From the NCBI GenBank assembly GCA_965209085.1, contig OZ242376.1, positions 544,001 to 608,000 on the forward strand: 64,000 nucleotides of DNA, read 5' to 3'. This DNA is from Nitrosopumilaceae archaeon (lineage in GTDB: Archaea > Thermoproteota > Nitrososphaeria > Nitrososphaerales > Nitrosopumilaceae). Each line of letters opens with the position of its first letter. The first letter of the stretch is position 1. Shown here one piece after another: positions 931-30,199 of this stretch. The notes below the pieces were generated by a model, which worked only from the letters and a program-made list of their open reading frames with translations, had not been told where the DNA came from and did not search any database. A program made the position numbers and the translations under genes.

Positions 931-2369
931 TAGGTCATATCACAACCTGCCTAATTCTGACATTTTGACTAAAACGATATTAAAATATCCAAGTTGGCGA
1001 CAATTTTGATTCCATAGATTTAGATCATCCCACAAAGTGGACGAATTATGAGAAACACCCACGGAGATGATCCACTATGAGTAGAAAGCACTGTGTAATA
1101 AAAATATCGAATGCAGAAACCAAAGAGGCGGATAAAAAAAGAATTGCCGAGAAAAACCTGAAAAGCCGTGCTGCATCCATGCTGTTTGGCCATCTGAGCC
1201 AGTTTGCAGTCCCAAAAGAATACAAAAAAGAACTCAAATGCATGAACAAATGTAAGAACGGCAGACGTTACATGTATCCGGACAAGCTTTTTTGGGTATT
1301 ATCTGTAATTCAAGCGTGCACAAGTTACTCAAGCTGCACTATTGAAGGGATGGTTAGAAAAGTAATGGATGATGCATCTCCATCTAGCAGTACGATATAC
1401 AAACGCATACAGAGATTGGACATTTCTGATAACGGATTGGAAAAGATGGCCCGCATGTGTGGTCTGTCTTTAAAAACACTTGATCCGACAAGGCGCATGA
1501 ACGGACAGCCTACGATGCTCATCTCTATTGATTCAAGAGGACTGAAACTATCAAAACTTGGATCATGGATAAAAGAAAAATGGGGCATATCAAGTCCGTT
1601 TCTAAAACTGCATCTTGTCATAAACGTAGAAACGCTTGAAATACTCGATTTTAAGATAACAAAAAGCAACAAGGGGGATGCATCACAGTTTCCACAGATG
1701 ATAAGAAAGGCACGCAAAAAGATCAGATGGCAGCTTGCGCACATGATATCTGAGATGGATTCAACTGAAGAGACTGCCAAATACAAAAACACAATGATGA
1801 AAATTCTTGGCGATGGGGCATACGGTACAAAAGAAAATTACAACGTGTGTGACAAACTTTGCATGTCTGGTCTGTTAAAGGTGCGTATCAATTCAGCACT
1901 GTCAGGCGGCAGTCATGAACGCAATACGGCGGTGCGAGAACAGCTTGGAGGAGATGCAAGCAAGCGTACAATGGATGATGTTTCAATACAAAAACGAAAG
2001 GAAAATCTGAAAAAATGGAAAAAAGATATAGAGTATGGAAAAAGATGGCACTCTGAAATTGTTTTTGCAATATTCAAAGAAAGGTTTGGAGAACATGTAC
2101 GATCAAGATATATGAAAAACATAAAGCAAGAAATTGGCATGAAAATCCTAGTGTACAATTTGTTAATATGTGCCGTACACTGACACAAACTGCAATAAGC
2201 CTAGCGGACGCTGTATGCAGATGTGTGAATTTTGGAAGATTTTTGTGTAAAATTACGGTTTGATAACAAATGGGTCCGGATATCGATGACAGGTGTGTGT
2301 TTTTGGAAGATTTACTGTCATTTTTGATGGAATTTCCAATAGAATTTTCAATAGTTGTGACATGACCTA
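931..2369 (+). mobile_element. 'IS-B', complete IS5-family (IS903-like) element inserted in the left TIR of IS-A
   Basis: TIRs TAGGTCATATCACAAC (931-946) and GTTGTGACATGACCTA (2354-2369). 8-bp direct repeat TAATTATG at 923-930 and 2370-2377. Confidence 0.9.
1077..2183 (+). CDS. IS5-family (IS903-like) DDE transposase
   Basis: Motifs DSRGLK, WIKEKW, FLKLHL, GDGAYGT and YGKRWHSE..F..FK..FG. Confidence 0.85.
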   Translation: MSRKHCVIKISNAETKEADKKRIAEKNLKSRAASMLFGHLSQFAVPKEYKKELKCMNKCKNGRRYMYPDKLFWVLSVIQACTSYSSCTIEGMVRKVMDDASPSSSTIYKRIQRLDISDNGLEKMARMCGLSLKTLDPTRRMNGQPTMLISIDSRGLKLSKLGSWIKEKWGISSPFLKLHLVINVETLEILDFKITKSNKGDASQFPQMIRKARKKIRWQLAHMISEMDSTEETAKYKNTMMKILGDGAYGTKENYNVCDKLCMSGLLKVRINSALSGGSHERNTAVREQLGGDASKRTMDDVSIQKRKENLKKWKKDIEYGKRWHSEIVFAIFKERFGEHVRSRYMKNIKQEIGMKILVYNLLICAVH

Positions 2370-11649: not shown

Positions 11650-12605
11650 AGATTTCCACTGTTAATGTCTTGCAGACATTTTACAACATTTTCCTTTGAT
11701 ATTGAAATCGGGTTTGGATCCAAATGTCCCCTGTCAGTCATTACAGTATCAGCTGCTTTTTCAACGTCCGCCTTTAACTGCATTTTCTCAAAGCCAAGTT
11801 TCTTGACAATTTCCTTGAATTGTTCGTAAAACTGTGACTTGTTGTGTTTGTGCGCTACAGTAGTGCATGATGAGAGCGAATATCCGTGCGGAACACCCTC
11901 GTTTGAGAATACATACGATAATGCATGACCCAATGTTGTAGAGCAGTTTCCAAATCCAATGCCAGACAGCATTGAACCGTACGGATACATTTCCGGTTTA
12001 TCATTTATAATTGCATCATATAGCACATCAAACGCCTGTTTGCACATTGTACGGGTAAAATCATTTCCAAGTTTGCTGTCATACCCTTCGGTTGCCTGCG
12101 CGCACGCATCGCATACAGAATTGTTTACAATCTGTTGTGGCGTACCCTCCATAAAGTATGAATCAACAACTGCCATATCTGCTAGAAATTTATCCTCTCT
12201 GAGCAGTTTCTTTTTTCCATCAAATTTTAGCACGCAATACGTGGTCATTTCAGCTCCTGTACCAAAAGTTGTAGGGATGAGAATCTTCTCCTTGCCCATC
12301 TCCGGAGCTGAGTATTTTACAACATCCATAGAGCTCCCTCCCCCAAGACCGATTATCACTGATGGATCTTTTGATTTAAACTCTGATATCACTCCGTTTA
12401 CATCATTAATGGACGGCTCTGGTGTTACCTTGTCATACAGCATGTAATCCTCTATTCCCATGCGGTCAAGCCACTTGCCTGAGAGTGCCGGAGGCGCTGT
12501 TGTAACAACTAGGGCGTTTTTTGGGTATTTGGCCTCTGATAGGGCATTTTTGCCAAAATTGATCACTTTGGGTATTTTAAGCGTGTTCACAATCTTTATC
12601 CTCAT
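11646..12605 (-). CDS. Iron-containing alcohol dehydrogenase, probably the malonate-semialdehyde reductase of the thaumarchaeal 3HP/4HB cycle
   Basis: GLGGGSSMD, IPTTFGTGAE and LGHALSY..PHG motifs. Resembles, from memory, N. maritimus Nmar_1110. Confidence 0.8.
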   Translation of the reverse strand: MRIKIVNTLKIPKVINFGKNALSEAKYPKNALVVTTAPPALSGKWLDRMGIEDYMLYDKVTPEPSINDVNGVISEFKSKDPSVIIGLGGGSSMDVVKYSAPEMGKEKILIPTTFGTGAEMTTYCVLKFDGKKKLLREDKFLADMAVVDSYFMEGTPQQIVNNSVCDACAQATEGYDSKLGNDFTRTMCKQAFDVLYDAIINDKPEMYPYGSMLSGIGFGNCSTTLGHALSYVFSNEGVPHGYSLSSCTTVAHKHNKSQFYEQFKEIVKKLGFEKMQLKADVEKAADTVMTDRGHLDPNPISISKENVVKCLQDINSGNL

Positions 12606-12774
12606 GTATATTCTTATTATACTTTACAATCCATAATTTGTCTAAAACATGGGTTGCTTTGTGTAAAAATCCTTGGTGTTTTTTATTAATTGATATAGGT
12701 GCAAATTACGTACAAGTGCATCATTTTGACTGTTTTAAGATGTGATTGTATTTTTTTTGAATCTTTACAGCTGC

Positions 12775-13251
12775 TGATCTTACCCCATCGGTTCGCAATT
12801 CAGCAGATGTGGTCCATCACGGACATGTAACAAAAAGAGGAAAGCTGAATGATGCGGTGGCCATTGGTGGAATCTGTTACCACCCATGTCCGATTTGCAT
12901 CAGAGAGTAACATTTCTGAATTTTACTGACGTCTTGCAAAAAATAGAGGATCATCCAAGGCCAAAGTTGCAGCAGCCAAGATGCTTGATGTCATATTTTG
13001 TATACTAAAGGATAGGAGTGAATTTGAAATAAATCATAGTTAAAGCAACAAACCGCGGGTTAGATTTTGGGGATGTTACCCCTGCTGCATAATTGCGGTA
13101 AGCTTTAACATGTGGATAAAGATGGTTGTGGGATTAAATCCCGAATGGATAGATGTCTTTTTATTTTTTGACTGGAAACAGACACATAGCGAAAGCCATA
13201 CCGCATGACACAAAAAATCAAGAAACATTTAAAAAGTATTCACACGGATAA
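12775..13251 (+). mobile_element. IS110 remnant: decayed 3' recombinase fragment plus complete non-coding right end
   Basis: Highly similar to 17165-17642, with an internal TGA stop; ends CACACGGAT-AA-ACTTTATT. Confidence 0.9.
13044..13249 (+). ncRNA. Second, diverged copy of the candidate IS110 bridge RNA
   Basis: Aligns to 17436-17640 and keeps the GGGG-ATGTTA-CCCC and GGGAT-TAA-ATCCC hairpins. Confidence 0.6.
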
Positions 13252-13291
13252 ACTTTATTAGCTTTATATACTAGTTTTACTTTACAATAAT

Positions 13292-13504
13292 ATGAACGTT
13301 GGAATAATAGGTATGGGATTATTTTTTACTGGACTAGGGCTTAGTTTGTTATCTGTGTGTATTCAAAATGAGGTAGGTGGATTTCAATATTCTATCAATC
13401 CAAAAGTAGGTGGTATGTTACTCGATACTATTGGAATAGCCATAATGGCATTAGGTGCAGTATTATTAGGTATAATCATATCTAAAAAAGCAAATATTAA
13501 GTAA
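13292..13504 (+). CDS. Small protein with two transmembrane helices
   Basis: Two hydrophobic helices and a basic tail. Confidence 0.55.
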   Translation: MNVGIIGMGLFFTGLGLSLLSVCIQNEVGGFQYSINPKVGGMLLDTIGIAIMALGAVLLGIIISKKANIK

Positions 13505-13725
13505 AAATTCCAATTATGATAATACAATACTTCAATCTAAATTATGTAATATTATAATAGACCTTGTGCATATCAATCACTAAAACATACGATTCCGACT
13601 ATGACGCTGTCATGATCAAAGTACACATGGCCTAAAACCTTCAAGCAGACAACAAAATAAATCAAAATATCATATGCATGACAAAAAAACAGAATATTAT
13701 ACGTGATCGTGTGCACAAAGATGTG

Positions 13726-14877
13726 CTACTTGATTTGAGGGCAGACTTTTTCCAACGGTTCGATATACTTGCGATCCTTTAACATGATGTGCAGGTTGGT
13801 CAGTCCTGTAACCACTTGGATTTCTGTATAAAACGCATCCATTGTGTCATCATATATGGTACTCATTCTACGGAACCATTTGAGCCGGTTTATGGCATGC
13901 TCTACTTTTATGCGCTTACGACTGATTCTCTTGCTGTATTCGCGTTCTGTCTCTGTCAATCCTCTGCCCTTTGGTTTTTTGTACGGTTGCTTTGAGATAA
14001 TTCCAGGATAGTCTTTTTCCACGGACAAGTATCCCTTGTCAGTATATAGCATAATTTGTCGCTCTTTGTTTGTATCCGAATTTTTCATGCCATCGGTCCA
14101 TTTGCCAAAATTTGGCGGATTACGTCGCAGTACCTCCATGTCATGTACTGAACCCTCTTCGGGTCCGCCAATGTCAAGTACCAGCCCGTCTTTGTTTGAG
14201 GTTATCTGTACGTTGTAGACGTGCCTCTTACGCTTTCCAGAGTATACTACCTCTTGGTTCTCCTGCGGTCTTTGAACCTGCACAAATGTGGCATCAAGAT
14301 ACAGCTCGCCACCGCCCCTGCCTGATGCGAATTTTTTAAACGACTCGATGGTACGCTCTTCCCGTATCGCAGCACCAACATTCTTAGCCGTTGGAAGAAT
14401 ATTCATCAACAGCTCATCAGCAAATACCAGATATCTGCTGATGGTACTCTGATCAACGCCTGCAATGGCTGCAAGCATTTCCTGTTTGGGGTTATTGCGC
14501 TTGCGGCATAGTGCGACAAACAAAATTTGTGGTGCAGTAAGAATACAGGTGTTTCCCGGATCGTCGACATATTCTGAAAAGCGAGGGGTTTCTGGCGAGT
14601 CTTCAACGGCATTTATGAACCGTTTCTGAATCCATTCAAATTCTTCACGATCCATTCCAGTCATCCCGTATAGATAATTGTCATCATCAACCATATGGTT
14701 CAAGTATTCATAAGCAGATTGTTTTTCGGTCTTATCCCCATCTATCATTTTTTTGTAGCGTTGGTTTTCTGCTTCAAGTTTGGAGATTCTTTTTTCCAAC
14801 TTGGAGATTATACGTTTGTCTGTAGCACACATGCTGTGTGATTGTAATACTTGATCATAGATCTTTCGATTTGCCAA
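13726..14877 (-). CDS. IS-A transposase (IS5/ISL2, DDE_Tnp_4-type)
   Basis: LYLDATF, YSGKRKRH, GSVHDM, TDKGY and RIKVEHAI..LKWFR motifs. Confidence 0.93.
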   Translation of the reverse strand: MANRKIYDQVLQSHSMCATDKRIISKLEKRISKLEAENQRYKKMIDGDKTEKQSAYEYLNHMVDDDNYLYGMTGMDREEFEWIQKRFINAVEDSPETPRFSEYVDDPGNTCILTAPQILFVALCRKRNNPKQEMLAAIAGVDQSTISRYLVFADELLMNILPTAKNVGAAIREERTIESFKKFASGRGGGELYLDATFVQVQRPQENQEVVYSGKRKRHVYNVQITSNKDGLVLDIGGPEEGSVHDMEVLRRNPPNFGKWTDGMKNSDTNKERQIMLYTDKGYLSVEKDYPGIISKQPYKKPKGRGLTETEREYSKRISRKRIKVEHAINRLKWFRRMSTIYDDTMDAFYTEIQVVTGLTNLHIMLKDRKYIEPLEKVCPQIK

Positions 14878-15668
14878 AATTGATTTTTTGGTTAATATGC
14901 ATAACCATATGTGAAGGGATCTTCTAAGACCACAGATGGTTGTAAGAATGTCAAACGATCCGTATCACCGAAACGTAAATCATCTAAAAAAGATCCAAAT
15001 GCAAACAAACAGATTACCACATATTCTGGGAAGAATATGTTTGTTGGAATGGACGTTCACAAGAAATTTCTTCAAGTTGCAATGATGGATAAAAAAGCCA
15101 AAGTGATTTTTAATGAGAGGATTGAAAATGAAAACAAGTCCATCAGCCGATTCTTCAGATCAAGTGTACCTGAAAATGCAAAAATCGTAATGGAATCTTC
15201 GTCCGTATGGTACGGATTATATCGATACATGACAGATAAAATGGGTTATGATGTCGTATTGTCAAATCCATGGGCGACAAAAATCATCGCCGCATCCAAG
15301 AAAAAGACCGACAAGAGGGATGCTGTAACACTTGCAGACCTATTACGGTGCGGATACATATCCCTCTGTCATGTCTCAAACAAGGACATAGTGGAACAAC
15401 GGCAACTTGTACGATATCGCGACAGTCTTGTCAAGACAAGAACAACTCTAAAAAACAAAATACATGGAATTTTGTTACAGGGAGGGATAAAGATCTTTGG
15501 AGCAACATTTACGCTTACATACAATAGAAAACTGCGTTCTCTAAAGGATTACCGTATAAACGGATATTTGGATTCTATTGGATTCGTTAATACAAAAATT
15601 GCAGACTCAAACATAAAAGTACACAACGCATCCTGTTCAAACAAGGATGCAATGTTGCTCAAGACAAT

Positions 15669-17068
15669 AGACCTCATGCATAATTAACTAAAAAATCAAT
15701 TTTGGCAAATCGAAAGATCTATGATCTAGTATCATGTGAGCATAGCATGTGCAAATCAGACAAACGCATGATCTCTAAACTGGAAAAGACGATCTTAAAG
15801 ATGGAAAAGACGATCCTAAAGATGGAAAAGAATAGCTCCAGGCAGGAATCAGAAATTCAACACTACAAAAAGATGGCACAGAGTAGCAATGATGACAAAA
15901 GACAACATGTCGATAAATATTTGAACAAGGGAATTGGGAATGATGTTCATCTATATGAAATGACAGGAATGAACCGTGAAGAATTTGAATGGATTCTAGA
16001 ACGGTTCAAAAAAACCGTAGAAAATTCATCAGAGATTCCCCGCTTTTCAGAATATGTGGACGATCCTGGAAACACCTGTATCCTTACCGTAAAGCAAGTT
16101 TTGTTTATCGTATTGTGCCGCAAACGCAATAATCTCAAACAGGGAGCACTTGCGTTCATTGCAGACGTTGATCAGAGCACCATTAGCAGATATCTGACAT
16201 TTTCTGATGAACTATTGATGGATATTCTTCCAACGGCTAAGAATATTGGTGCTGCAATACGGACAATACGTACAAGCGAGTTGTTTAAAAAATTCGTACC
16301 CGGCAGAGGCGGCGGCGAGCTATATCTTGATGCCACGTTTGTACAGGTTCAAAGACCGCAGGAGAATCAAGAAACAGTATACTATTCTGGAAAGCGCAAA
16401 AGGCACGTCTACAGCATACAGATAACCTCCAACAAAGATGGAGTGGTAAATGACATTGGCGGTCCAGAAGAGGGCTCAGTACATGACATGGAGGTACTGC
16501 GGCGTAATCCGCCAAATTTTGGCAAATGGACCGATGGCATGAAAAACTCTGATACAAAAAAAGAGCGCCAAATTACACTCTACACCGACAAGGGATACTT
16601 GTCCGTGGAAAAAGACTATCCTGGAATTATCTCAAAGCAGCCATACAAAAAACCAAAGGGTAGGGGATTGACAGAGACAGAACGCGAATATAGCAAGAGG
16701 ATCAGTCGTAAGCGCATAAAAGTAGAGCATGCCATAAACCGGCTCAAATGGTTTCGCAGAATGAGTGCCGTATATGATGACACAATGGATGCATTTTATA
16801 CAGAAATCCAAGTGGTTACAGGACTGACCAATCTGCACATCATGTTAAAGGATCGCAAGTATATCGAACCGTTGGAAAAAATTTGCCCTCAAATCAAGTA
16901 GCACATCTTTGTGCACACGGTTACGCATAATATTCTGCTTTTTGTCATGCATATGATATTTTGATTTATTTTGTTGTCTGCTTGAAGGTTTTAGGCCATG
17001 TGTACTTTGATCATGACAGTGTCATAGTAGGAACCGTATGTCTTTGCAGTTGATTATGCATGAACTCT
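15669..17068 (+). mobile_element. IS-A complete copy (1400 bp)
   Basis: TIRs AGACCTCATGCATAAT and ATTATGCATGAACTCT; TSD AAT at 15666-15668 and 17069-17071. Confidence 0.95.
15702..16901 (+). CDS. IS-A transposase
   Basis: 399 aa with DDE motifs; near-identical to 28970-30166. Confidence 0.93.
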   Translation: MANRKIYDLVSCEHSMCKSDKRMISKLEKTILKMEKTILKMEKNSSRQESEIQHYKKMAQSSNDDKRQHVDKYLNKGIGNDVHLYEMTGMNREEFEWILERFKKTVENSSEIPRFSEYVDDPGNTCILTVKQVLFIVLCRKRNNLKQGALAFIADVDQSTISRYLTFSDELLMDILPTAKNIGAAIRTIRTSELFKKFVPGRGGGELYLDATFVQVQRPQENQETVYYSGKRKRHVYSIQITSNKDGVVNDIGGPEEGSVHDMEVLRRNPPNFGKWTDGMKNSDTKKERQITLYTDKGYLSVEKDYPGIISKQPYKKPKGRGLTETEREYSKRISRKRIKVEHAINRLKWFRRMSAVYDDTMDAFYTEIQVVTGLTNLHIMLKDRKYIEPLEKICPQIK

Positions 17069-17435
17069 AATACCTGGCATAGGTGATTTTATTTCATTGA
17101 TACTGGCAGCAGAGATTGATGGAGTTGAGAGGTTTTCTGAACCAAAACAACTCAAATCATATGCAGGTCTTGCCCCATCGGTTCGCAATTCAGCAGATGT
17201 GGTCCATCACGGACATGTAACAAAAAGAGGAAGCAGGATGATGCGGTGGGCACTGGTGGAAGCTGTTACCACCCATGTCCGATTTGCATCAGAGAGTAAC
17301 ATTTCTGAATTTTACCGGCGTCTTGCAAAAAAGAGAGGATCATCCAAGGCCAAAGTTGCAGCAGCGGCCAAGATGCTTGATATCATATTTCGTATGCTAA
17401 AGGATAGGAGTGAATTTGAAATACATCATAGTTAA

Positions 17436-17640
17436 AGCAACAAACCGCGAGTTAGAGTTTGGGGATGTTACCCCGTTGCATAACTGCGGTAAGCTTTAAC
17501 ATGTGGACGAAGATGGTTGTGGGGTTAAATCCCGAATGGATAGATGTCTTTTTACCTTTTGACTGGAAACAAACACATAGCGAAAGCCATACCGCATGAC
17601 ACAAAAAAGCAAGAAACCTTTAAAAAGTATTCACATGGAT
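17436..17640 (+). ncRNA. Candidate IS110 bridge/seek RNA with target-binding and donor-binding loops
   Basis: Guides TAGAGTTT (17453-17460) and TGCATAA (17477-17483) flank the GGGG/CCCC hairpin and match the target. ATGGTT (17513-17518) and ATGGATA (17536-17542) flank a second hairpin and match the donor junction. RNA boundaries are approximate. Confidence 0.75.
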
Positions 17641-17647
17641 AAACTCT

Positions 17648-17853
17648 ATTGAACCGTTGGAAAAAGTCTGCCCTCAAATCAAGTAGCACATCTTTGTGCA
17701 CACGGTCACGCATAATATTCTGCTTTTTGTCATGCATGTGACATTTTGATTTATTTTGTTGTCTGCTTGAAGGTTTTAGGCCATGTGTACTTTGATCATG
17801 ACAGTGTCATAGTAGGAACCGTATGTCTCAGGGATTGATTATGCATGAACTCT
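17648..17853 (+). mobile_element. Isolated IS-A right end
   Basis: Encodes IEPLEKVCPQIK*, then the 3' UTR and TIR ATTATGCATGAACTCT, followed by AAT. Confidence 0.9.
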
Positions 17854-17946
17854 AATATGTTGAACGTTTTCTTCAATTATTGGTCAATAATGGTTGGGGG
17901 AATTAAATTTATAATCACCTTGAATCTTTGTATGTGCAAAGATAAT

Positions 17947-18660
17947 TTAGGACTTTGGATAATAGCGACAATAAAATTTCCACCACAATTTCCAATATTT
18001 AGATCTATTTTCCCAACCTTGTAATATTTGTTCGATATAAATTAAAGCATCATGTTTTGTTTTTTTAATTATATATTTTTGCAATGGATTAAAACGTAGT
18101 TTATTATATTCATTATAAATACCTCTTATCCCTGATCTAAAAATATTCAAATTTGACCAAAAATATTTTGCATCTTTTTTATAATTAATTATTTTAATTT
18201 TTAATGATTTTTTTTCAAAATAATCTACATCTGTAATTAGTAATCCATCATTTAATAAATACGATATGCATTGTTTTAATATTTTATATCTTCTAACTCC
18301 AGTTACATATAGTACTGCTTTACTACATATTACAATATTTGCCTTTGGTCCTTTGTATGATAAGTTAAGAATATCTTCATTTATAAATTCATCACAATTT
18401 TTTTTTGCTTTATTTTTAATATTTTTTTTCTTAGTAACGTCAATGCCTATAATATATGGGTTAATATTCTCCCTTTTTATTCTCTCACGTGAATCATTTA
18501 TTGCTACTCCAGTAGAACAACATGCATCAATAATTACTGGAGATGTTAATTTTTTATCTTTTAAATATTCCATTATTAACTTATCGATTCCAGTGTATTC
18601 ATACCTGTTACTATATGTAGTAGTATTCTTCCAATTTCCATCTGACATAATATGTGACAT
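17947..18660 (-). CDS. Class I SAM-dependent methyltransferase-like protein
   Basis: IIDACCSTG (motif I-like), IIGIDV, and LLNDGLLI; very AT-rich. Confidence 0.6.
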   Translation of the reverse strand: MSHIMSDGNWKNTTTYSNRYEYTGIDKLIMEYLKDKKLTSPVIIDACCSTGVAINDSRERIKRENINPYIIGIDVTKKKNIKNKAKKNCDEFINEDILNLSYKGPKANIVICSKAVLYVTGVRRYKILKQCISYLLNDGLLITDVDYFEKKSLKIKIINYKKDAKYFWSNLNIFRSGIRGIYNEYNKLRFNPLQKYIIKKTKHDALIYIEQILQGWENRSKYWKLWWKFYCRYYPKS

Positions 18661-24726: not shown

Positions 24727-25566
24727 TTGAAATTAATTCACGCAAGTATGGATCATGGAAGGTACGAACAAAGAGGGATCACAGAGCCCCGAAAAATAGA
24801 AGGCAATGACGGAAACATTTATGCTGTAAAATTTTCCCCTGCAGATGAACCTGACTCGAACTACAATAGAGCGTATGCATAATGGGTCAAATTCACAATT
24901 TTTACGAATAAAAATGATCGATTTGAATGATTATGCATACGGTCTAATGAATGGCTCGGATCATTGCTGGCTTTAAAATTAGGTGTGGAAGTATTGGAAC
25001 CATTTGTGATGATATTTGATAACGACTTTGTATCAAACTCTAAAGAAATCCAAGATAGTGGAATACGTGCTGGAGCATATTTTGCCACTTTGTATCAACA
25101 TGACAAATACAATTTAAGCGAGTATCTTAATGATGCATCAACCATCAGTAATCTTGAATCAGTTAACGCATTTATAATATTTGACATATTTGTTAATAAT
25201 CGTGATAGGCATGACAGAAACACCATGCTCATACCCAATGCAAAAGCTATTGGATCGCATTACAAATATGTGCTAATCGATCATGGACGCTGTTTTAGAA
25301 TCACAGAGGGAGATTTGCCGTATGAACAACCAAAAATTGAATGGAATACGTCATGTGTTGACACATACAAATTACATGAAAAAATAAACTTTGTTATGGG
25401 GATGGCAACTTTAAATTTACTAGAGTGTATTTTTACCGAAATTGATAAACATGTTAAACGCCCGGCACATGTCGATATGTTGCAAAATGCTCTCATTACC
25501 CGTGATCCTGGAGATATAATGTCAATTATTGACAAGTATTATGGGCATTTACTCGGAGGCCAATAA
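24727..25566 (+). pseudogene. HipA-like (HipA_2) kinase interrupted by a MITE
   Basis: Removing the insert gives RGITEPRKIEGNDGNIYAVKF..NYN|EWLGSLLALKLG ... FDIFVNNRDRHDRN ... LIDHGRCF. Confidence 0.85.
24868..24945. mobile_element. 78-bp MITE with IS-A-type TIRs
   Basis: AGAGCGTATGCATAAT ... ATTATGCATACGGTCT; TSD AAT at 24865-24867 and 24946-24948. Confidence 0.93.
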
Positions 25567-28802: not shown

Positions 28803-30199
28803 AGAGTTCATGCATAATCAACTGCAAAGACATACGGTTCCTACTATGACACTGTCATGATCAAAGTACACATGGCCTAAAACCTTCAAGCAGACAACAA
28901 AATAAATCAAAATATCATATGCATGACAAAAAGCAGAATATTATGCGTAACCGTGTGCACAAAGATGTGCTACTTGATTTGAGGGCAAATTTTTTCCAAC
29001 GGTTCGATATACTTGCGATCCTTTAACATGATGTGCAGATTGGTCAGTCCTGTAACCACTTGGATTTCTGTATAAAACGCATCCATTGTGTCATCATATA
29101 CGGCACTCATTCTGCGAAACCATTTGAGCCGGTTTATGGCATGCTCTACTTTTATGCGCTTACGACTGATCCTCTTGCTATATTCGCGTTCTGTCTCTGT
29201 CAATCCCCTACCCTTTGGTTTTTTGTACGGCTGCTTTGAGATAATTCCAGGATAGTCTTTTTCCACGGACAAGTATCCCTTGTCGGTGTAGAGTGTAATT
29301 TGGCGCTCTTTTTTTGTATCAGAGTTTTTCATGCCATCGGTCCATTTGCCAAAATTTGGCGGATTACGCCGCAGTACCTCCATGTCATGTACTGAGCCCT
29401 CTTCTGGACCGCCAATGTCATTTACCACTCCATCTTTGTTGGAGGTTATCTGTATGCTGTAGACGTGCCTTTTGCGCTTTCCAGAATATACTGCCTCTTG
29501 ATTCTCCTGCGGTCTTTGAACCTGTACAAACGTGGCATCAAGATATAGTTCGCCGCCGCCTCTGCCGGGTACGAATTTTTTAAACAACTCGCTTGTACGT
29601 ATTGTCCGTATTGCAGCACCAATATTCTTAGCCGTTGGAAGAATATCCATCAATAGTTCATCAGAAAATGTCAGATATCTGCTAATGGTGCTCTGATCAA
29701 CGTCTGCAATGAACGCAAGTGCTCCCTGTTTGAGATTATTGCGTTTGCGGCACAATACGATAAACAAAACTTGCTTTACGGTAAGGATACAGGTGTTTCC
29801 AGGATCGTCCACATATTCTGAAAAGCGGGGAATCTCTGATGAATTTTCTACGGTTTTTTTGAACCGTTCTAGAATCCATTCAAATTCTTCACGGTTCATT
29901 CCTGTCATTTCATATAGATGAACATCATTCCCAATTCCCTTGTTCAAATATTTATCGACATGTTGTCTTTTGTCATCATTGCTACTCTGTGCCATCTTTT
30001 TGTAGTGTTGAATTTCTGATTCCTGCCTGGAGCTATTCTTTTCCATCTTTAGGATCGTCTTTTCCATCTTTAAGATCGTCTTTTCCAGTTTAGAGATCAT
30101 GCGTTTGTCTGATTTGCACATGCTATGCTCACATGATACTAGATCATAGATCTTTCGATTTGCCAAAATTGATTTTTTAGTTAATTATGCATGAGGTCT
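28803..30199 (-). mobile_element. IS-A complete copy (1397 bp)
   Basis: TIRs AGAGTTCATGCATAAT and ATTATGCATGAGGTCT; TSD ATT at 28800-28802 and 30200-30202. Confidence 0.95.
28970..30166 (-). CDS. IS-A transposase
   Basis: 398 aa with DDE motifs. Confidence 0.93.
   Translation of the reverse strand: MANRKIYDLVSCEHSMCKSDKRMISKLEKTILKMEKTILKMEKNSSRQESEIQHYKKMAQSSNDDKRQHVDKYLNKGIGNDVHLYEMTGMNREEFEWILERFKKTVENSSEIPRFSEYVDDPGNTCILTVKQVLFIVLCRKRNNLKQGALAFIADVDQSTISRYLTFSDELLMDILPTAKNIGAAIRTIRTSELFKKFVPGRGGGELYLDATFVQVQRPQENQEAVYSGKRKRHVYSIQITSNKDGVVNDIGGPEEGSVHDMEVLRRNPPNFGKWTDGMKNSDTKKERQITLYTDKGYLSVEKDYPGIISKQPYKKPKGRGLTETEREYSKRISRKRIKVEHAINRLKWFRRMSAVYDDTMDAFYTEIQVVTGLTNLHIMLKDRKYIEPLEKICPQIK

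What the first reader, a model, noticed from the sequence alone, without database searches (positions are those of the whole stretch)
15666..17071. Reciprocal IS conflict: IS-A inactivates the IS110, and intact IS-A copies lack the TT core
An intact IS-A with an AAT TSD splits the IS110 recombinase at KT-IPGIG, giving three nesting levels (IS-A > IS110 > IS-A). The two near-identical, apparently youngest IS-A copies have TIRs AGAGTTCATGCA and AGACCTCATGCA, and the MITEs have AGAGCGTATGCA and AGACCGTATGCA. All of these alter the TT core at positions 6-7 that the guide requires. Inference: TIR variants escaping an RNA-guided parasite.
Basis: partly seen in the sequence, partly recalled or inferred. 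Interest (0 to 1): 0.72.

Follow-up and report, generated by a model that had tools for sequence, protein, structure and literature searches.

The report
RNA-guided IS110 parasitising transposon ends
In this archaeal genome a bridge-RNA-guided IS110 element inserts into the terminal repeats of another transposon and its miniature derivatives, one copy of it has been knocked out by that same transposon, and a one-base repeat variant is never occupied, which may be resistance but is not proven.

Summary
The nest is real. An IS5-like IS-A copy (window 15669-17068, TSD AAT) splits an IS1111-type IS110 recombinase gene at KT|IPGIG. That IS110 (14904-17641) sits in the left terminal repeat of an older IS-A copy.

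The crossover core is TA (repeat positions 7-8), not TT (6-7). This follows from a second IS110 family with the same donor ends, whose junctions share only TA.

The MITE "GT" variants keep the core and are hit. Two intact, 99.7% identical IS110 copies sit in AGACCG-T MITE ends, so that part of the idea is refuted.

The T7-to-C7 variant does change the core:
- No C7 end is occupied (0 of 43), against 11 of 51 T7 ends.
- C7 is derived: 15 of 15 ends read in the congener are T.
- IS110 guide variants roughly track tip variants.
- The congener may show a parallel pattern on a different target repeat.

Several points weaken the inference:
- A second young IS-A subfamily with intact genes keeps T7 and is also unoccupied.
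- The occupied IS-A copies are old lineages.
- The repeat ends are not independent samples.
- One IS-A hit inside IS110 DNA is within chance expectation.

C7 as resistance is plausible (about 0.6). Selected escape is unproven (about 0.3).

The parts
13559..14903 (-). Outer IS-A copy (IS5-like, DDE_Tnp_4). Its frame is open (383-aa ORF 13726-14877). Its left terminal repeat is cut by the IS110 after ...TATGCATA. Its right repeat reads AGACCTTGTGCAT.
14902..14903 (+). Left copy of the TA crossover core (positions 8-7 of the IS-A repeat, read on the IS110 strand).
   Evidence: IS110-A junctions share ATAA. IS110-B junctions, with the same donor ends, share only TA.
14904..15665 (+). IS110-A, 5' part. 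It comprises the left end ACCATATGTGAAG (subterminal inverted repeat), 138 nt of non-coding DNA, and the recombinase N-terminal part (MFVGMDVHK... from 15042; DEDD_Tnp_IS110).
15666..15668 (.). AAT target-site duplication, left copy.
15669..17068 (+). Inner, young IS-A copy (subfamily Y1). It has a 399-aa transposase ORF at 15702-16901 and repeats AGACCTC... and ...GAACTCT (C at position 7 on both ends). It is 100% identical over the aligned 1402 bases to the copy at genome 960268.
17069..17071 (.). AAT target-site duplication, right copy.
17072..17435 (+). IS110-A recombinase C-terminal part (IPGIG...; Transposase_20), ending with the stop codon.
17444..17488 (+). [quoted passage not shown] The 5' loop is the reverse complement of AAACTCTAA (repeat tip plus flank). 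The 3' loop carries UGCA-UA, which matches the left target plus core.
17505..17548 (+). Predicted donor-binding loop. The loops AAGAUGGUUG and GAAUGGAUAG match AACCAT (left end) and ATGGATA (right end plus core). It is conserved across IS110-A, IS110-B and the G001 relatives.
17549..17641 (+). Rest of the IS110 right end, ending TTCACATGGA-TA (subterminal repeat plus right core copy).
17642..17647 (-). Severed 6-bp tip (AACTCT, which is AGAGTT in repeat orientation) of the outer IS-A left repeat.
17650..17853 (+). Solo right-end fragment of another IS-A (the last ~200 bp, with a C7 repeat AGAGTTC). How it came to lie here was not worked out.
12772..13257 (+). 3' fragment of another IS110-A copy (guide loop variant AGAUUUU, right flank AACTTTA).
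28803..30199 (-). Second Y1 IS-A copy in the window (99.4-99.6% identical), with C7 on both ends and TSD AAT.
24868..24945 (+). MITE with AGAGCG-T and AGACCG-T ends (T7 type, free).
36580..36657 (-). MITE with AGAGCG-T and AAACCG-T ends (T7 type, free).

Best explanation
The locus is a three-level transposon nest in an archaeal chromosome.

**The IS110 element.** It is an IS1111-type member of the IS110 family. It has a DEDD recombinase, subterminal inverted repeats, and a 206-nt 3' non-coding end that encodes a two-loop bridge/seek RNA.
- The target loop reads TGCA-TA through the left target guide.
- It reads (A)AACTCTAA through the right target guide.
- Together these match the outermost 13-16 bp of the terminal repeat shared by the IS5-like IS-A and its ~80-bp MITEs.
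- Recombination is at a TA core (repeat positions 7-8).
- This cuts the 6-bp tip off the repeat and presumably immobilises that end (inferred).

**The inner IS-A copy.** It is a very recent, ordinary insertion with a 3-bp AAT duplication. It happened to land in the recombinase gene and destroyed the only copy carrying the AGAGUUU guide variant that still had an open frame. Nothing suggests that this hit was aimed.

**The T-to-C change at repeat position 7.** It turns the target core from TA into TG.
- The left target guide then mismatches (A opposite C).
- The right target guide keeps only a G-U wobble.
- I think this most likely lowers or blocks IS110 insertion (inferred, about 0.6).
- That would fit the finding that C7 ends are never occupied.
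- Whether C7 spread because of this advantage is not shown (about 0.3). The alternatives are neutral spread with the currently active IS-A and MITE lineages.

The MITE variants with G at position 6 keep the core and are demonstrably used as targets.
For: **Family and anatomy**
- Pfam finds PF01548 plus PF02371 on the two halves of the IS110 gene, and PF13359 on IS-A.
- All 11 left junctions found at recognisable IS-A or MITE ends read ...TATGCATA|ACCATATG. Fifteen of 17 right ends read GGATA followed by AACTCT, ACCTCT, AGGTCT or CGGTCT. One more reads GAATA followed by TGGTCT, and one fragment reads GGGTG.

**Core**
- IS110-B (65% identical, same donor ends and donor loop) has four left junctions N-TA-ACCATATG.
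- Its right junction is GGA-TA-TACTGCGG in 3 copies and GGATA-ACTGCGG in the fourth.
- Only TA is shared between its left and right junctions.

**Guide RNA**
- The stems are conserved with a compensatory change (GGGG/CCCC against GGAG/CUCC).
- The target loops are hypervariable and the donor loops are conserved, over 29 distinct sequences.
- The target loops match each lineage's own flanks.

**Guide and tip covariation**
- 4 of 4 copies with the AGAGUUU guide lie at CTCT tips.
- Of 9 copies with the AGACUUU guide, 6 lie at GTCT/GTCC tips and 3 at CTCT tips (Fisher p=0.07).

**C7 and occupancy**
- Of 148 end hits, 11 are occupied and all are T7. Free perfect ends are T7 40 and C7 43 (p=0.0008 if the ends were independent).
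- For AGAGTT tips, 5 of 9 T7 ends are occupied against 0 of 11 C7 ends.
- In three elements with one T7 and one C7 end (IS-A 963195, MITEs 157703 and 260023), the IS110 is in the T7 end each time.
- In the two MITEs, the C7 tip AGACTT is the better match to the AGACUUU guide.

**Polarity**
- 15 of 15 congener ends are T7, and the basal right-end lineages are T7.

**Recent IS110 activity**
- Two open copies are 99.7% identical and lie at different sites.

**Literature, from passages read**
- In IS621 all four guides include the core, and pairing to both strands of the core is strongly preferred (PMC11208160).
- In IS621 the second core base is almost invariant and is contacted by the protein (PMC11208158).
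Against: **Age confound**
- Subfamily Y2 has 7 copies that are 98.4-100% identical to one another. Six have open frames. The ends are AGACCT-T and AGGCCT-T.
- Y2 carries no IS110 although it has T7.
- The three occupied IS-A copies are old lineages. Their nearest relatives are at 98%, 92.7% and 90% identity.
- Restricted to MITEs whose 47-bp interior has a 100% identical twin, the contrast is 4 of 19 T7 ends against 0 of 19 C7 ends. That is p=0.105 two-sided.

**Non-independence and background variation**
- The ends are copies of a few lineages, so the Fisher tests overstate the evidence.
- Repeat positions 4-7 are all polymorphic, so position 7 is not uniquely variable.
- The number of independent origins of C7 is unresolved.

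**Possible counter-examples**
- One 179-nt IS110 fragment (genome 670225-670403) ends GGGTG|AACTCT. This could be the scar of an insertion into a C7 repeat.
- In the congener, one IS110 lineage has TG at its right end with a matching guide. G at core position 2 is therefore not forbidden to this recombinase clade.
- If junction cores were inherited differently from what I infer, occupied ends would not report the original target base.

**Other gaps**
- Free T7 ends may have been hit and then cleared by precise excision.
- No RNA evidence and no assay were available.
Confidence: 0.6

Rival explanations
1. Timing only. C7 is neutral with respect to the IS110. C7 ends are unoccupied because the C7 IS-A and MITE lineages multiplied recently, after most IS110 activity, and the nesting is ordinary pile-up in an IS-rich region.
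For: - Y2, a young T7 subfamily, is equally unoccupied.
- The occupied IS-A copies are old.
- Three of the four copies with the AGAGUUU guide have broken frames and the fourth is interrupted.
- The age-restricted MITE contrast is not significant (p=0.105).
- Positions 4-7 of the repeat vary freely.
Against: - Two open IS110 copies are 99.7% identical, which is as young as the Y1 burst at 99.2-100%.
- Four MITEs with 100% identical twins carry an IS110, always in a T7 end.
- In 3 of 3 elements with one end of each kind, the T7 end is the one occupied.
- 0 of 11 AGAGTT-C ends are occupied against 5 of 9 AGAGTT-T ends.
- The change sits exactly on a core base.
Confidence: 0.3
2. C7 marks a shift in IS-A transposase/repeat specificity, or simple hitch-hiking with the active master copy. 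The currently active transposase lineage uses C7 ends. IS-A copies and MITEs carrying C7 are therefore the ones amplified, irrespective of the IS110.
For: - C7 is on both ends of all 6 Y1 copies.
- C7 is on both ends of 8 of the 41 paired MITEs.
- The C7 right end is found on three other IS-A backbones, which look chimeric.
Against: - Elements with one T7 and one C7 end exist and include a young MITE lineage.
- T7/T7 Y2 copies and T7/T7 MITEs have multiplied as recently. Both states therefore seem usable by the transposases present.
- This rival is not exclusive of resistance.
Confidence: 0.25
3. This is a reciprocal arms race in which IS-A actively disables the IS110, and all listed repeat variants (TC and GT at positions 6-7) are escapes from a TT-core guide.
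For: - One IS-A copy does split an IS110 gene.
- C7 ends are unoccupied.
Against: - The core is TA at positions 7-8.
- AGACCG-T MITE ends are occupied at genome 157647 and 694891, and an AGACCA-T end at 1642921.
- A single IS-A hit is within chance. IS110 DNA is 1.2% of the genome, and the chance of at least one hit is 0.26 to 0.56.
- The IS-A duplication AAT is simply its commonest target: 4 of 6 Y1 copies have AAT/AAT.
Confidence: 0.05

Closest known systems
[quoted passage not shown]
   Same: - It is an IS1111-type element with subterminal inverted repeats.
- It inserts at one fixed position and orientation inside the terminal repeat of another transposon.

Of the 2003 paper I saw only the title, in the reference lists of PMC11208160 and PMC11187229. 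That such insertion disables the repeat is recalled, not read.
   Different: - The host is an archaeon.
- The victim is an IS5-like IS (DDE_Tnp_4) and its MITEs, not a Tn3-family transposon.
- There are many victim copies with natural repeat variants in one genome.
- There are two guide variants of the IS110.
- No sequence comparison with IS4321 was made here.
IS621 bridge RNA system (IS110 group) and the seekRNA of IS1111 elements
   Same: - Two internal loops, one matching the target and one matching the donor.
- The left guides read in the sense of the top strand, and the right guides are its reverse complement.
- A dinucleotide core is included in the guides.
- The RNA lies in the long right end, as described for the IS1111 group (PMC11208160 passages).
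   Different: - The core is TA, not CT.
- In IS110-A the right target guide pairs with only the second core base and then runs 8-9 nt into the right target.
- There is no Rfam match.
- Function was not tested here.
IS5 family / PIF-Harbinger-like DDE_Tnp_4 transposons with MITE derivatives
   Same: - IS-A has PF13359 plus an HTH_Tnp_4 signal below Pfam's own cut-off.
- It has terminal inverted repeats and a 3-bp duplication.
- It has short non-autonomous derivatives that share only the repeat ends.
   Different: - The subgroup was not assigned.
- No relatives were found outside the genus with the tools used.

Membership tests
IS110 family (IS1111 group) | DEDD (RuvC-like) N-terminal domain PF01548 plus C-terminal PF02371 domain | tested here: met
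   PF01548 at E 3e-28 on the 5' half, and PF02371 at E 8.5e-21 on the 3' half.
IS110 family (IS1111 group) | No terminal inverted repeats and no multi-base duplication; the element is flanked only by a short core | tested here: met
   the junctions share only ATAA (IS110-A) or TA (IS110-B). Rejoining the flanks gives the free repeat sequence exactly.
IS110 family (IS1111 group) | Subterminal inverted repeats, and a right non-coding end longer than the left | tested here: met
   ACCATATGTGAA at the left and TTCACATGGAT at the right. The left end is 138 nt and the right end is 206 nt.
IS110 family (IS1111 group) | Bridge/seek RNA with a target loop and a donor loop that match flank and ends | tested here: met
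   matched by sequence and by covariation across lineages. Expression and function of the RNA are not testable here. There is no Rfam hit.
IS110 family (IS1111 group) | RNA-guided insertion shown by an assay | not testable with these tools
   No experiment was possible. No RNA run is listed for this stretch.
IS5-like / DDE_Tnp_4 transposon (IS-A) | DDE_Tnp_4 catalytic domain | tested here: met
   PF13359 at E 8e-20 and 2e-21.
IS5-like / DDE_Tnp_4 transposon (IS-A) | Terminal inverted repeats and a short target duplication | tested here: met
   the repeats are AGA(C/G)(C/T)T(C/T)ATGCATAAT. 5 of 6 Y1 copies have matching 3-bp flanks (AAT four times, AGT once).
Adaptive escape of a target from an RNA-guided element (arms race) | The variant lowers targeting | tested here: inconclusive
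   0 of 43 C7 ends are occupied against 11 of 51 T7 ends, but age and relatedness confound this. There is no assay.
Adaptive escape of a target from an RNA-guided element (arms race) | The variant is derived and arose in the presence of the parasite | tested here: met
   15 of 15 G001 ends are T7. The IS110 relatives read in G001 target other repeats, and none of the 9 distinct G001 target loops aligned fits the IS-A repeat. This is one comparison only.
Adaptive escape of a target from an RNA-guided element (arms race) | The variant spread because of the advantage | not testable with these tools
   This needs dated population series or competition experiments.

The most novel reading that the evidence does not exclude
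This would be a transposon-against-transposon arms race visible in one genome.
- An RNA-guided IS110 lives by cutting the terminal repeats of an IS5-like element and its MITEs.
- Its right target guide has been re-tuned at least once to follow repeat-tip variants (AGAGUUU against AGACUUU).
- The victim lineages that now multiply have changed the one base the parasite cannot follow by a single guide change, namely the second core base.
- The same signature may recur on an unrelated MITE in the sister species, where TG-core copies are free and TA-core copies are occupied.

If true, core mutation is a general route to immunity against bridge recombinases.
Probability: 0.3. Interest if true: 0.75.

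Novelty: new member of a known kind. Interest (0 to 1): 0.5.

Why it matters
Bridge and seek RNA recombinases are being developed as programmable genome tools. Natural data on which target changes they can and cannot follow are scarce.

This single archaeal genome offers a natural panel:
- about 95 repeat ends that differ at defined positions,
- 11 occupied ends,
- two guide variants,
- a second IS110 family with the same donor ends.

It gives a directly testable prediction: a one-base change at the second core position abolishes targeting, whereas changes at tip positions 4-6 are tolerated or followed by the guide.

It also shows that IS1111-type parasitism of transposon ends, known from Tn21-family transposons in bacteria, occurs in archaea against an IS5-like element and its MITEs.

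If the escape reading held, it would be a rare case of selection acting between two transposable elements rather than between element and host. As it stands, the nest itself is ordinary and the evolutionary claim is only suggestive.

Tried and rejected
**Searches that gave nothing**
- Rfam scan of window 12500-18000 at E<=1 gave no match. Rfam may simply hold no model for this RNA.
- Single-sequence folding of the 3' end gave z = -0.64, so it is not informative on its own. The alignment-based structure is what I use.
- The IS-A transposase, alone and as a 4-row alignment, found no relative in genome contigs. By DNA, only the congener G001 matched among the 40 relatives searched beside G000. 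The outgroup is therefore a single genome.

**Sequencing runs**
- No RNA holder is listed.
- Only Logan contigs were available. The joint 15665 to 17069 (the IS110 without the IS-A) is seen in 3 runs. It is expected from the 7 other uninterrupted IS110 copies of the same genome, so it says nothing about polymorphism.
- The goes-back joint 17650 to 13300 comes from the neighbouring IS110 fragment.
- Loose ends after GGATA show CGGTCT, TGGTCT and GGTCT flanks. By eye, two of them do not match the right flanks. I did not check them against the genome.

**Analyses that did not resolve**
- The right-end tree needs three changes of the C7 label, but no branch is well supported. One origin is therefore not excluded.
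- My first fuzzy-regex census missed many ends and was replaced by the Hamming scan.
I rejected it because IS110-B shares only TA, and because right flanks CGGTCT and TGGTCT would put a mismatch inside an AA core.
- For the G001 data I considered that the right-junction G comes from the target, which would make TG targets permissive. I favour the donor origin because the right-end base agrees with the left donor guide in 9 of 11 readable copies. This is not settled.

**Papers**
- I read only passages found with 'find' in PMC11208160, PMC11208158 and PMC11187229 (reference list only).
- Supplements are closed and may hold target logos for IS1111 elements that bear on core rules.
- I found no paper on escape of target repeats from IS110 elements. 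This rests on the listings of two searches, of which none of the listed titles fits.
Full report
**What is there**

The window lies in a single-contig 1.69-Mb genome of 41% G+C. Its ribosomal RNAs match the archaeal models best.

The flagged stretch, 15666-17071, is an IS-A copy (15669-17068) flanked by AAT on both sides.
- IS-A encodes a 399-aa protein with a DDE_Tnp_4 domain.
- Its repeats are AGACCTCATGCATAAT on the left and AGAGTTCATGCATAAT on the right, both read inward.
- The DNA on either side is one gene. The 5' part matches DEDD_Tnp_IS110 and the 3' part matches Transposase_20.
- The unbroken site AAGACAATACCTGGCATAGG stands in 7 other IS110 copies of the genome.

Taking the IS-A out by coordinates restores a 331-aa frame. 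Its first 30 and last 15 residues as printed match those of the only two uninterrupted IS110 copies (genome 157647 and 694891), bar the final residue.

**The IS110 and its target**

BLAST of the element against the genome gave 26 segments: about ten near-full copies plus fragments, at 92-100% identity. It also found a second family, IS110-B, at about 65% identity.
- All 11 left junctions found at recognisable IS-A or MITE ends read ...TATGCATA|ACCATATG.
- Fifteen of 17 right ends read GGATA followed by AACTCT, ACCTCT, AGGTCT or CGGTCT. One more reads GAATA followed by TGGTCT, and one fragment reads GGGTG.
- The flanks belong to four kinds of end: IS-A left, IS-A right, and the two ends of a ~80-bp MITE that shares only the outer ~16 bp with IS-A.

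The IS110 therefore sits at one position and in one orientation inside the terminal repeat, and it cuts off the 6-bp tip.

In the window the host is an older IS-A on the minus strand (13559-14903), with its tip at 17642-17647. The rejoined repeat equals the free left end of its 98% sister copy. The three nesting levels are real.

**The guide RNA**

The 206-nt 3' end holds two stem-loops with symmetric internal loops.
- In the first, the outer stem CCGCG/UGCGG is conserved.
- Its inner stem shows a compensatory change: GGGG/CCCC in IS110-A and GGAG/CUCC in IS110-B and in the congener.
- Its two loops differ between lineages. In the window copy the 5' loop AGUUAGAGUUU is the reverse complement of AAACTCTAA (repeat tip plus flank). 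The 3' loop GUUGCAUAAC carries UGCA-UA, which is the left target plus core.
- In the second stem-loop, the loops AAGAUGGUUG and GAAUGGAUAG match the element's own ends (AACCAT, ATGGATA). They are conserved across all lineages.

This is the layout described for bridge RNAs. Left guides read in the sense of the top strand, right guides are its reverse complement, and the RNA lies in the right end in the IS1111 group (passages of PMC11208160).

The loops of other lineages match their own flanks.
- IS110-B: CGCAGUAUA against TATACTGCG.
- Congener copies: AAAUGUA against TACATTT, AAAUAUA against TATATTT, and CCACUAUA against TATAGTGG.

Rfam has no match. Expression was not tested.

**Where the core is**

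IS110-A junctions share four bases, ATAA, so AT, TA or AA would all fit.

IS110-B has the same ends and the same donor loop. Its left junctions are C-TA-ACC or G-TA-ACC, and its right junctions are GGA-TA-TAC. Only TA is shared.

In both families the left target guide carries UA at the same loop positions.

The right flanks CGGTCT (twice) and TGGTCT would put a mismatch inside an AA core but not inside TA.

The core is therefore TA, which is repeat positions 7-8.

This correction has two consequences.
- The MITE variants AGAGCG-T and AGACCG-T keep the core.
- The variants AGAGTT-C and AGACCT-C change its second base: TG on the IS110 strand.

**Test of the escape idea**

I scanned the genome for the interior signatures of the four end kinds, allowing up to 5 mismatches. 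This gave 148 hits, classified.

| Class | Count |
|---|---|
| Occupied by IS110 (2 IS-A left, 1 IS-A right, 5 + 3 MITE) | 11 |
| Occupied by a third element (IS-C) | 3 |
| Decayed | 21 |
| Free, perfect ATGCAT and AGR tip, T7 | 40 |
| Free, perfect ATGCAT and AGR tip, C7 | 43 |
| Free, imperfect (25 T, 4 C, 1 A) | 30 |

All 11 occupied ends show T at position 7, and no C7 end is occupied. Fisher's test gives p = 0.0008 if the ends were independent, which they are not.

- **The MITE part is refuted.** AGACCG-T ends are occupied at 157647 and 694891, by the two open IS110 copies, which are 99.7% identical.
- **AGAGTT tips.** These fit the AGAGUUU guide perfectly. 5 of 9 T7 ends are occupied against 0 of 11 C7 ends.
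- **Elements with one end of each kind.** There are three (IS-A 963195, MITEs 157703 and 260023), and the IS110 sits in the T7 end each time. In the two MITEs the C7 tip AGACTT is the better match to the AGACUUU guide. Three of three is p = 0.125.
- **Polarity.** The congener G001 has IS-A relatives at about 74% identity, and all 15 ends I read are T7. The deepest right-end lineages in this genome are T7.

**What weakens it**

- IS-A has two young subfamilies. Y1 has 6 copies at 99.2-100% identity with C7 on both ends. Y2 has 7 copies at 98.4-100%, with T7 on the ends that can be read, and 6 of them have open frames.
- Y2 carries no IS110, although its left end AGACCT-T is a target type seen at three IS110 right junctions.
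- The occupied IS-A copies are old lineages. Time of exposure clearly matters.
- Among MITEs whose interior has a 100% identical twin, the contrast is 4 of 19 T7 ends against 0 of 19 C7 ends (p = 0.105 two-sided).
- Repeat positions 4-7 are all polymorphic.
- One IS110 fragment ends GGGTG|AACTCT (genome 670225-670403). This might be the scar of an insertion into a C7 end, or two later mutations.
- Precise excision could have cleared some T7 ends.

**The congener as a second case**

The IS110 relatives read in G001 (about 68% identical) mostly target the middle of a different MITE, GTTC-T[A/G]-[C/T]ATTTAC. I read 32 contexts from the 30 loci fetched, out of 60 pattern matches.
- 4 are occupied, and all have TA at the left junction.
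- 28 are free: TG 13, TA 10 (only 3 of these with a matching right target), TT 2, CG 2 and CA 1.
- In this MITE, six separate insertions all have TA on the left.
- The right junction is TG or TA in step with the left donor guide (UG or UA) in 9 of 11 readable copies.

I read this as follows. The left junction keeps the target's core and the right junction keeps the donor's. On that reading, TA targets are used (6 occupied, 3 free) and TG targets are not (0 of 13; p = 0.001). That is the same pattern as in this genome.

If instead the right-junction G came from the target, TG would be permissive and the case would count against the idea. The same data also show that this recombinase clade can carry G at core position 2 in a donor.

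**Guide following the target**

- The four copies with the AGAGUUU guide all lie at CTCT tips.
- Of nine copies with the AGACUUU guide, six lie at GTCT/GTCC tips and three at CTCT tips (p = 0.07). I counted the duplicated locus 728323/959195 once, and I left out the fragment with AGAUUUU.
- This is suggestive covariation at repeat positions 4-5. These are positions that a single guide change can follow.

**The "reciprocal" part**

- IS110 DNA is 1.2% of the genome.
- With 25 IS-A or 66 IS-A plus MITE insertions, the chance of at least one hit is 0.26 to 0.56.
- AAT is the commonest IS-A duplication: 4 of 6 Y1 copies have it.
- The hit did remove the only AGAGUUU-guide copy with an open frame. 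Nothing shows that it was aimed.

**Verdict**

- The core assignment and the MITE claim are wrong.
The left target guide would mismatch the core. IS621 strongly prefers pairing to both core strands, and its second core base is nearly invariant.
- The evidence is correlational and confounded by age and relatedness.
- The system is a new archaeal member of the known class of IS1111-type elements that target transposon ends. The arms-race reading is a good hypothesis with a cheap decisive test.

Noticed in passing
window 931-2369 (genome 544931-546369); also genome about 917682/919142, 751101, 802855, 804327, and window about 35804: A third element, IS-C, sits inside the IS-A left repeat.
- It has a 368-aa DDE_Tnp_1 transposase (ORF 1077-2183).
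- Its ends read TAGGTCAT(A/G)TCACAAC.
- It has an 8-bp duplication CATAATTA.

The same element recurs in other IS-A or MITE repeats about 18 bp from the tip, and once inside an IS110 right end. The IS-A repeat is therefore a landing site for at least three kinds of element.
   Followed up: partly
genome 666618-667873, 730252-732621, 856434-857691, 1172205-1173366 (outside the window): IS110-B is a second IS110 family, 65% identical to IS110-A.
- It has the same ends and donor loop but a different target loop (GCGCAGUAUAU / GAGAUUCUAAC).
- It always lies next to the same repeated sequence, (T)ACTGCGGATCAAAAGTAACTGCA..., but with different left flanks.
- It seems to sit at the edge of another repeated element.
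   Followed up: partly
window 17642-17853 and genome 670225-670738: In two places an IS110 right end plus the 6-bp tip AACTCT is followed, after 1-2 bases, by an internal part of IS-A running to its right end (from about base 1197 and 1069 of IS-A). The matching other side is missing in the window. This suggests deletions or recombination between IS copies. The second case is the fragment that ends GGGTG instead of GGATA.
   Followed up: no
genome 849303, 1628550, 1620947; tandem pair 256871-258276 / 258274-259624: IS-A copies and MITEs are themselves found inserted at the AAT of another copy's repeat (ATGCATAAT), or exactly abutting another copy and sharing the AAT. IS-A may therefore prefer its own repeat as a target.
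   Followed up: no
G001 loci L050 (two sites), L042, L043, L047, L052, L057: Free copies of the G001 target MITE read GTTC-TA-GATG-CATTTAC or GTTC-TA-GATTTAC. They look like footprints of excision through a TA lying 4 bp inside the IS110 right end (CACA-TA-GATG) rather than at the proper core.
   Followed up: no
genome 683413-682079 (outside the window): One IS110-A copy lies outside any repeat end, at ...TCAGTTA-TA-AGGTCCATTA. This is a look-alike site with the TA core. Its left target guide carries the variant UGUAUA.
   Followed up: no
IS-A copies at genome 855436, 878482, 963195: These copies sit on different IS-A backbones (86-92% identical to Y1) yet carry the Y1-type right end with C7. 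IS-A copies therefore appear to be chimeric, through recombination or conversion between copies.
   Followed up: partly
loose ends at window 17641-17642: Contigs of other public runs join the IS110 right end to CGGTCT... and GGTCT... flanks. By eye these differ from the flanks in this genome, which suggests further insertion sites in related strains. All of them follow GGATA.
   Followed up: no
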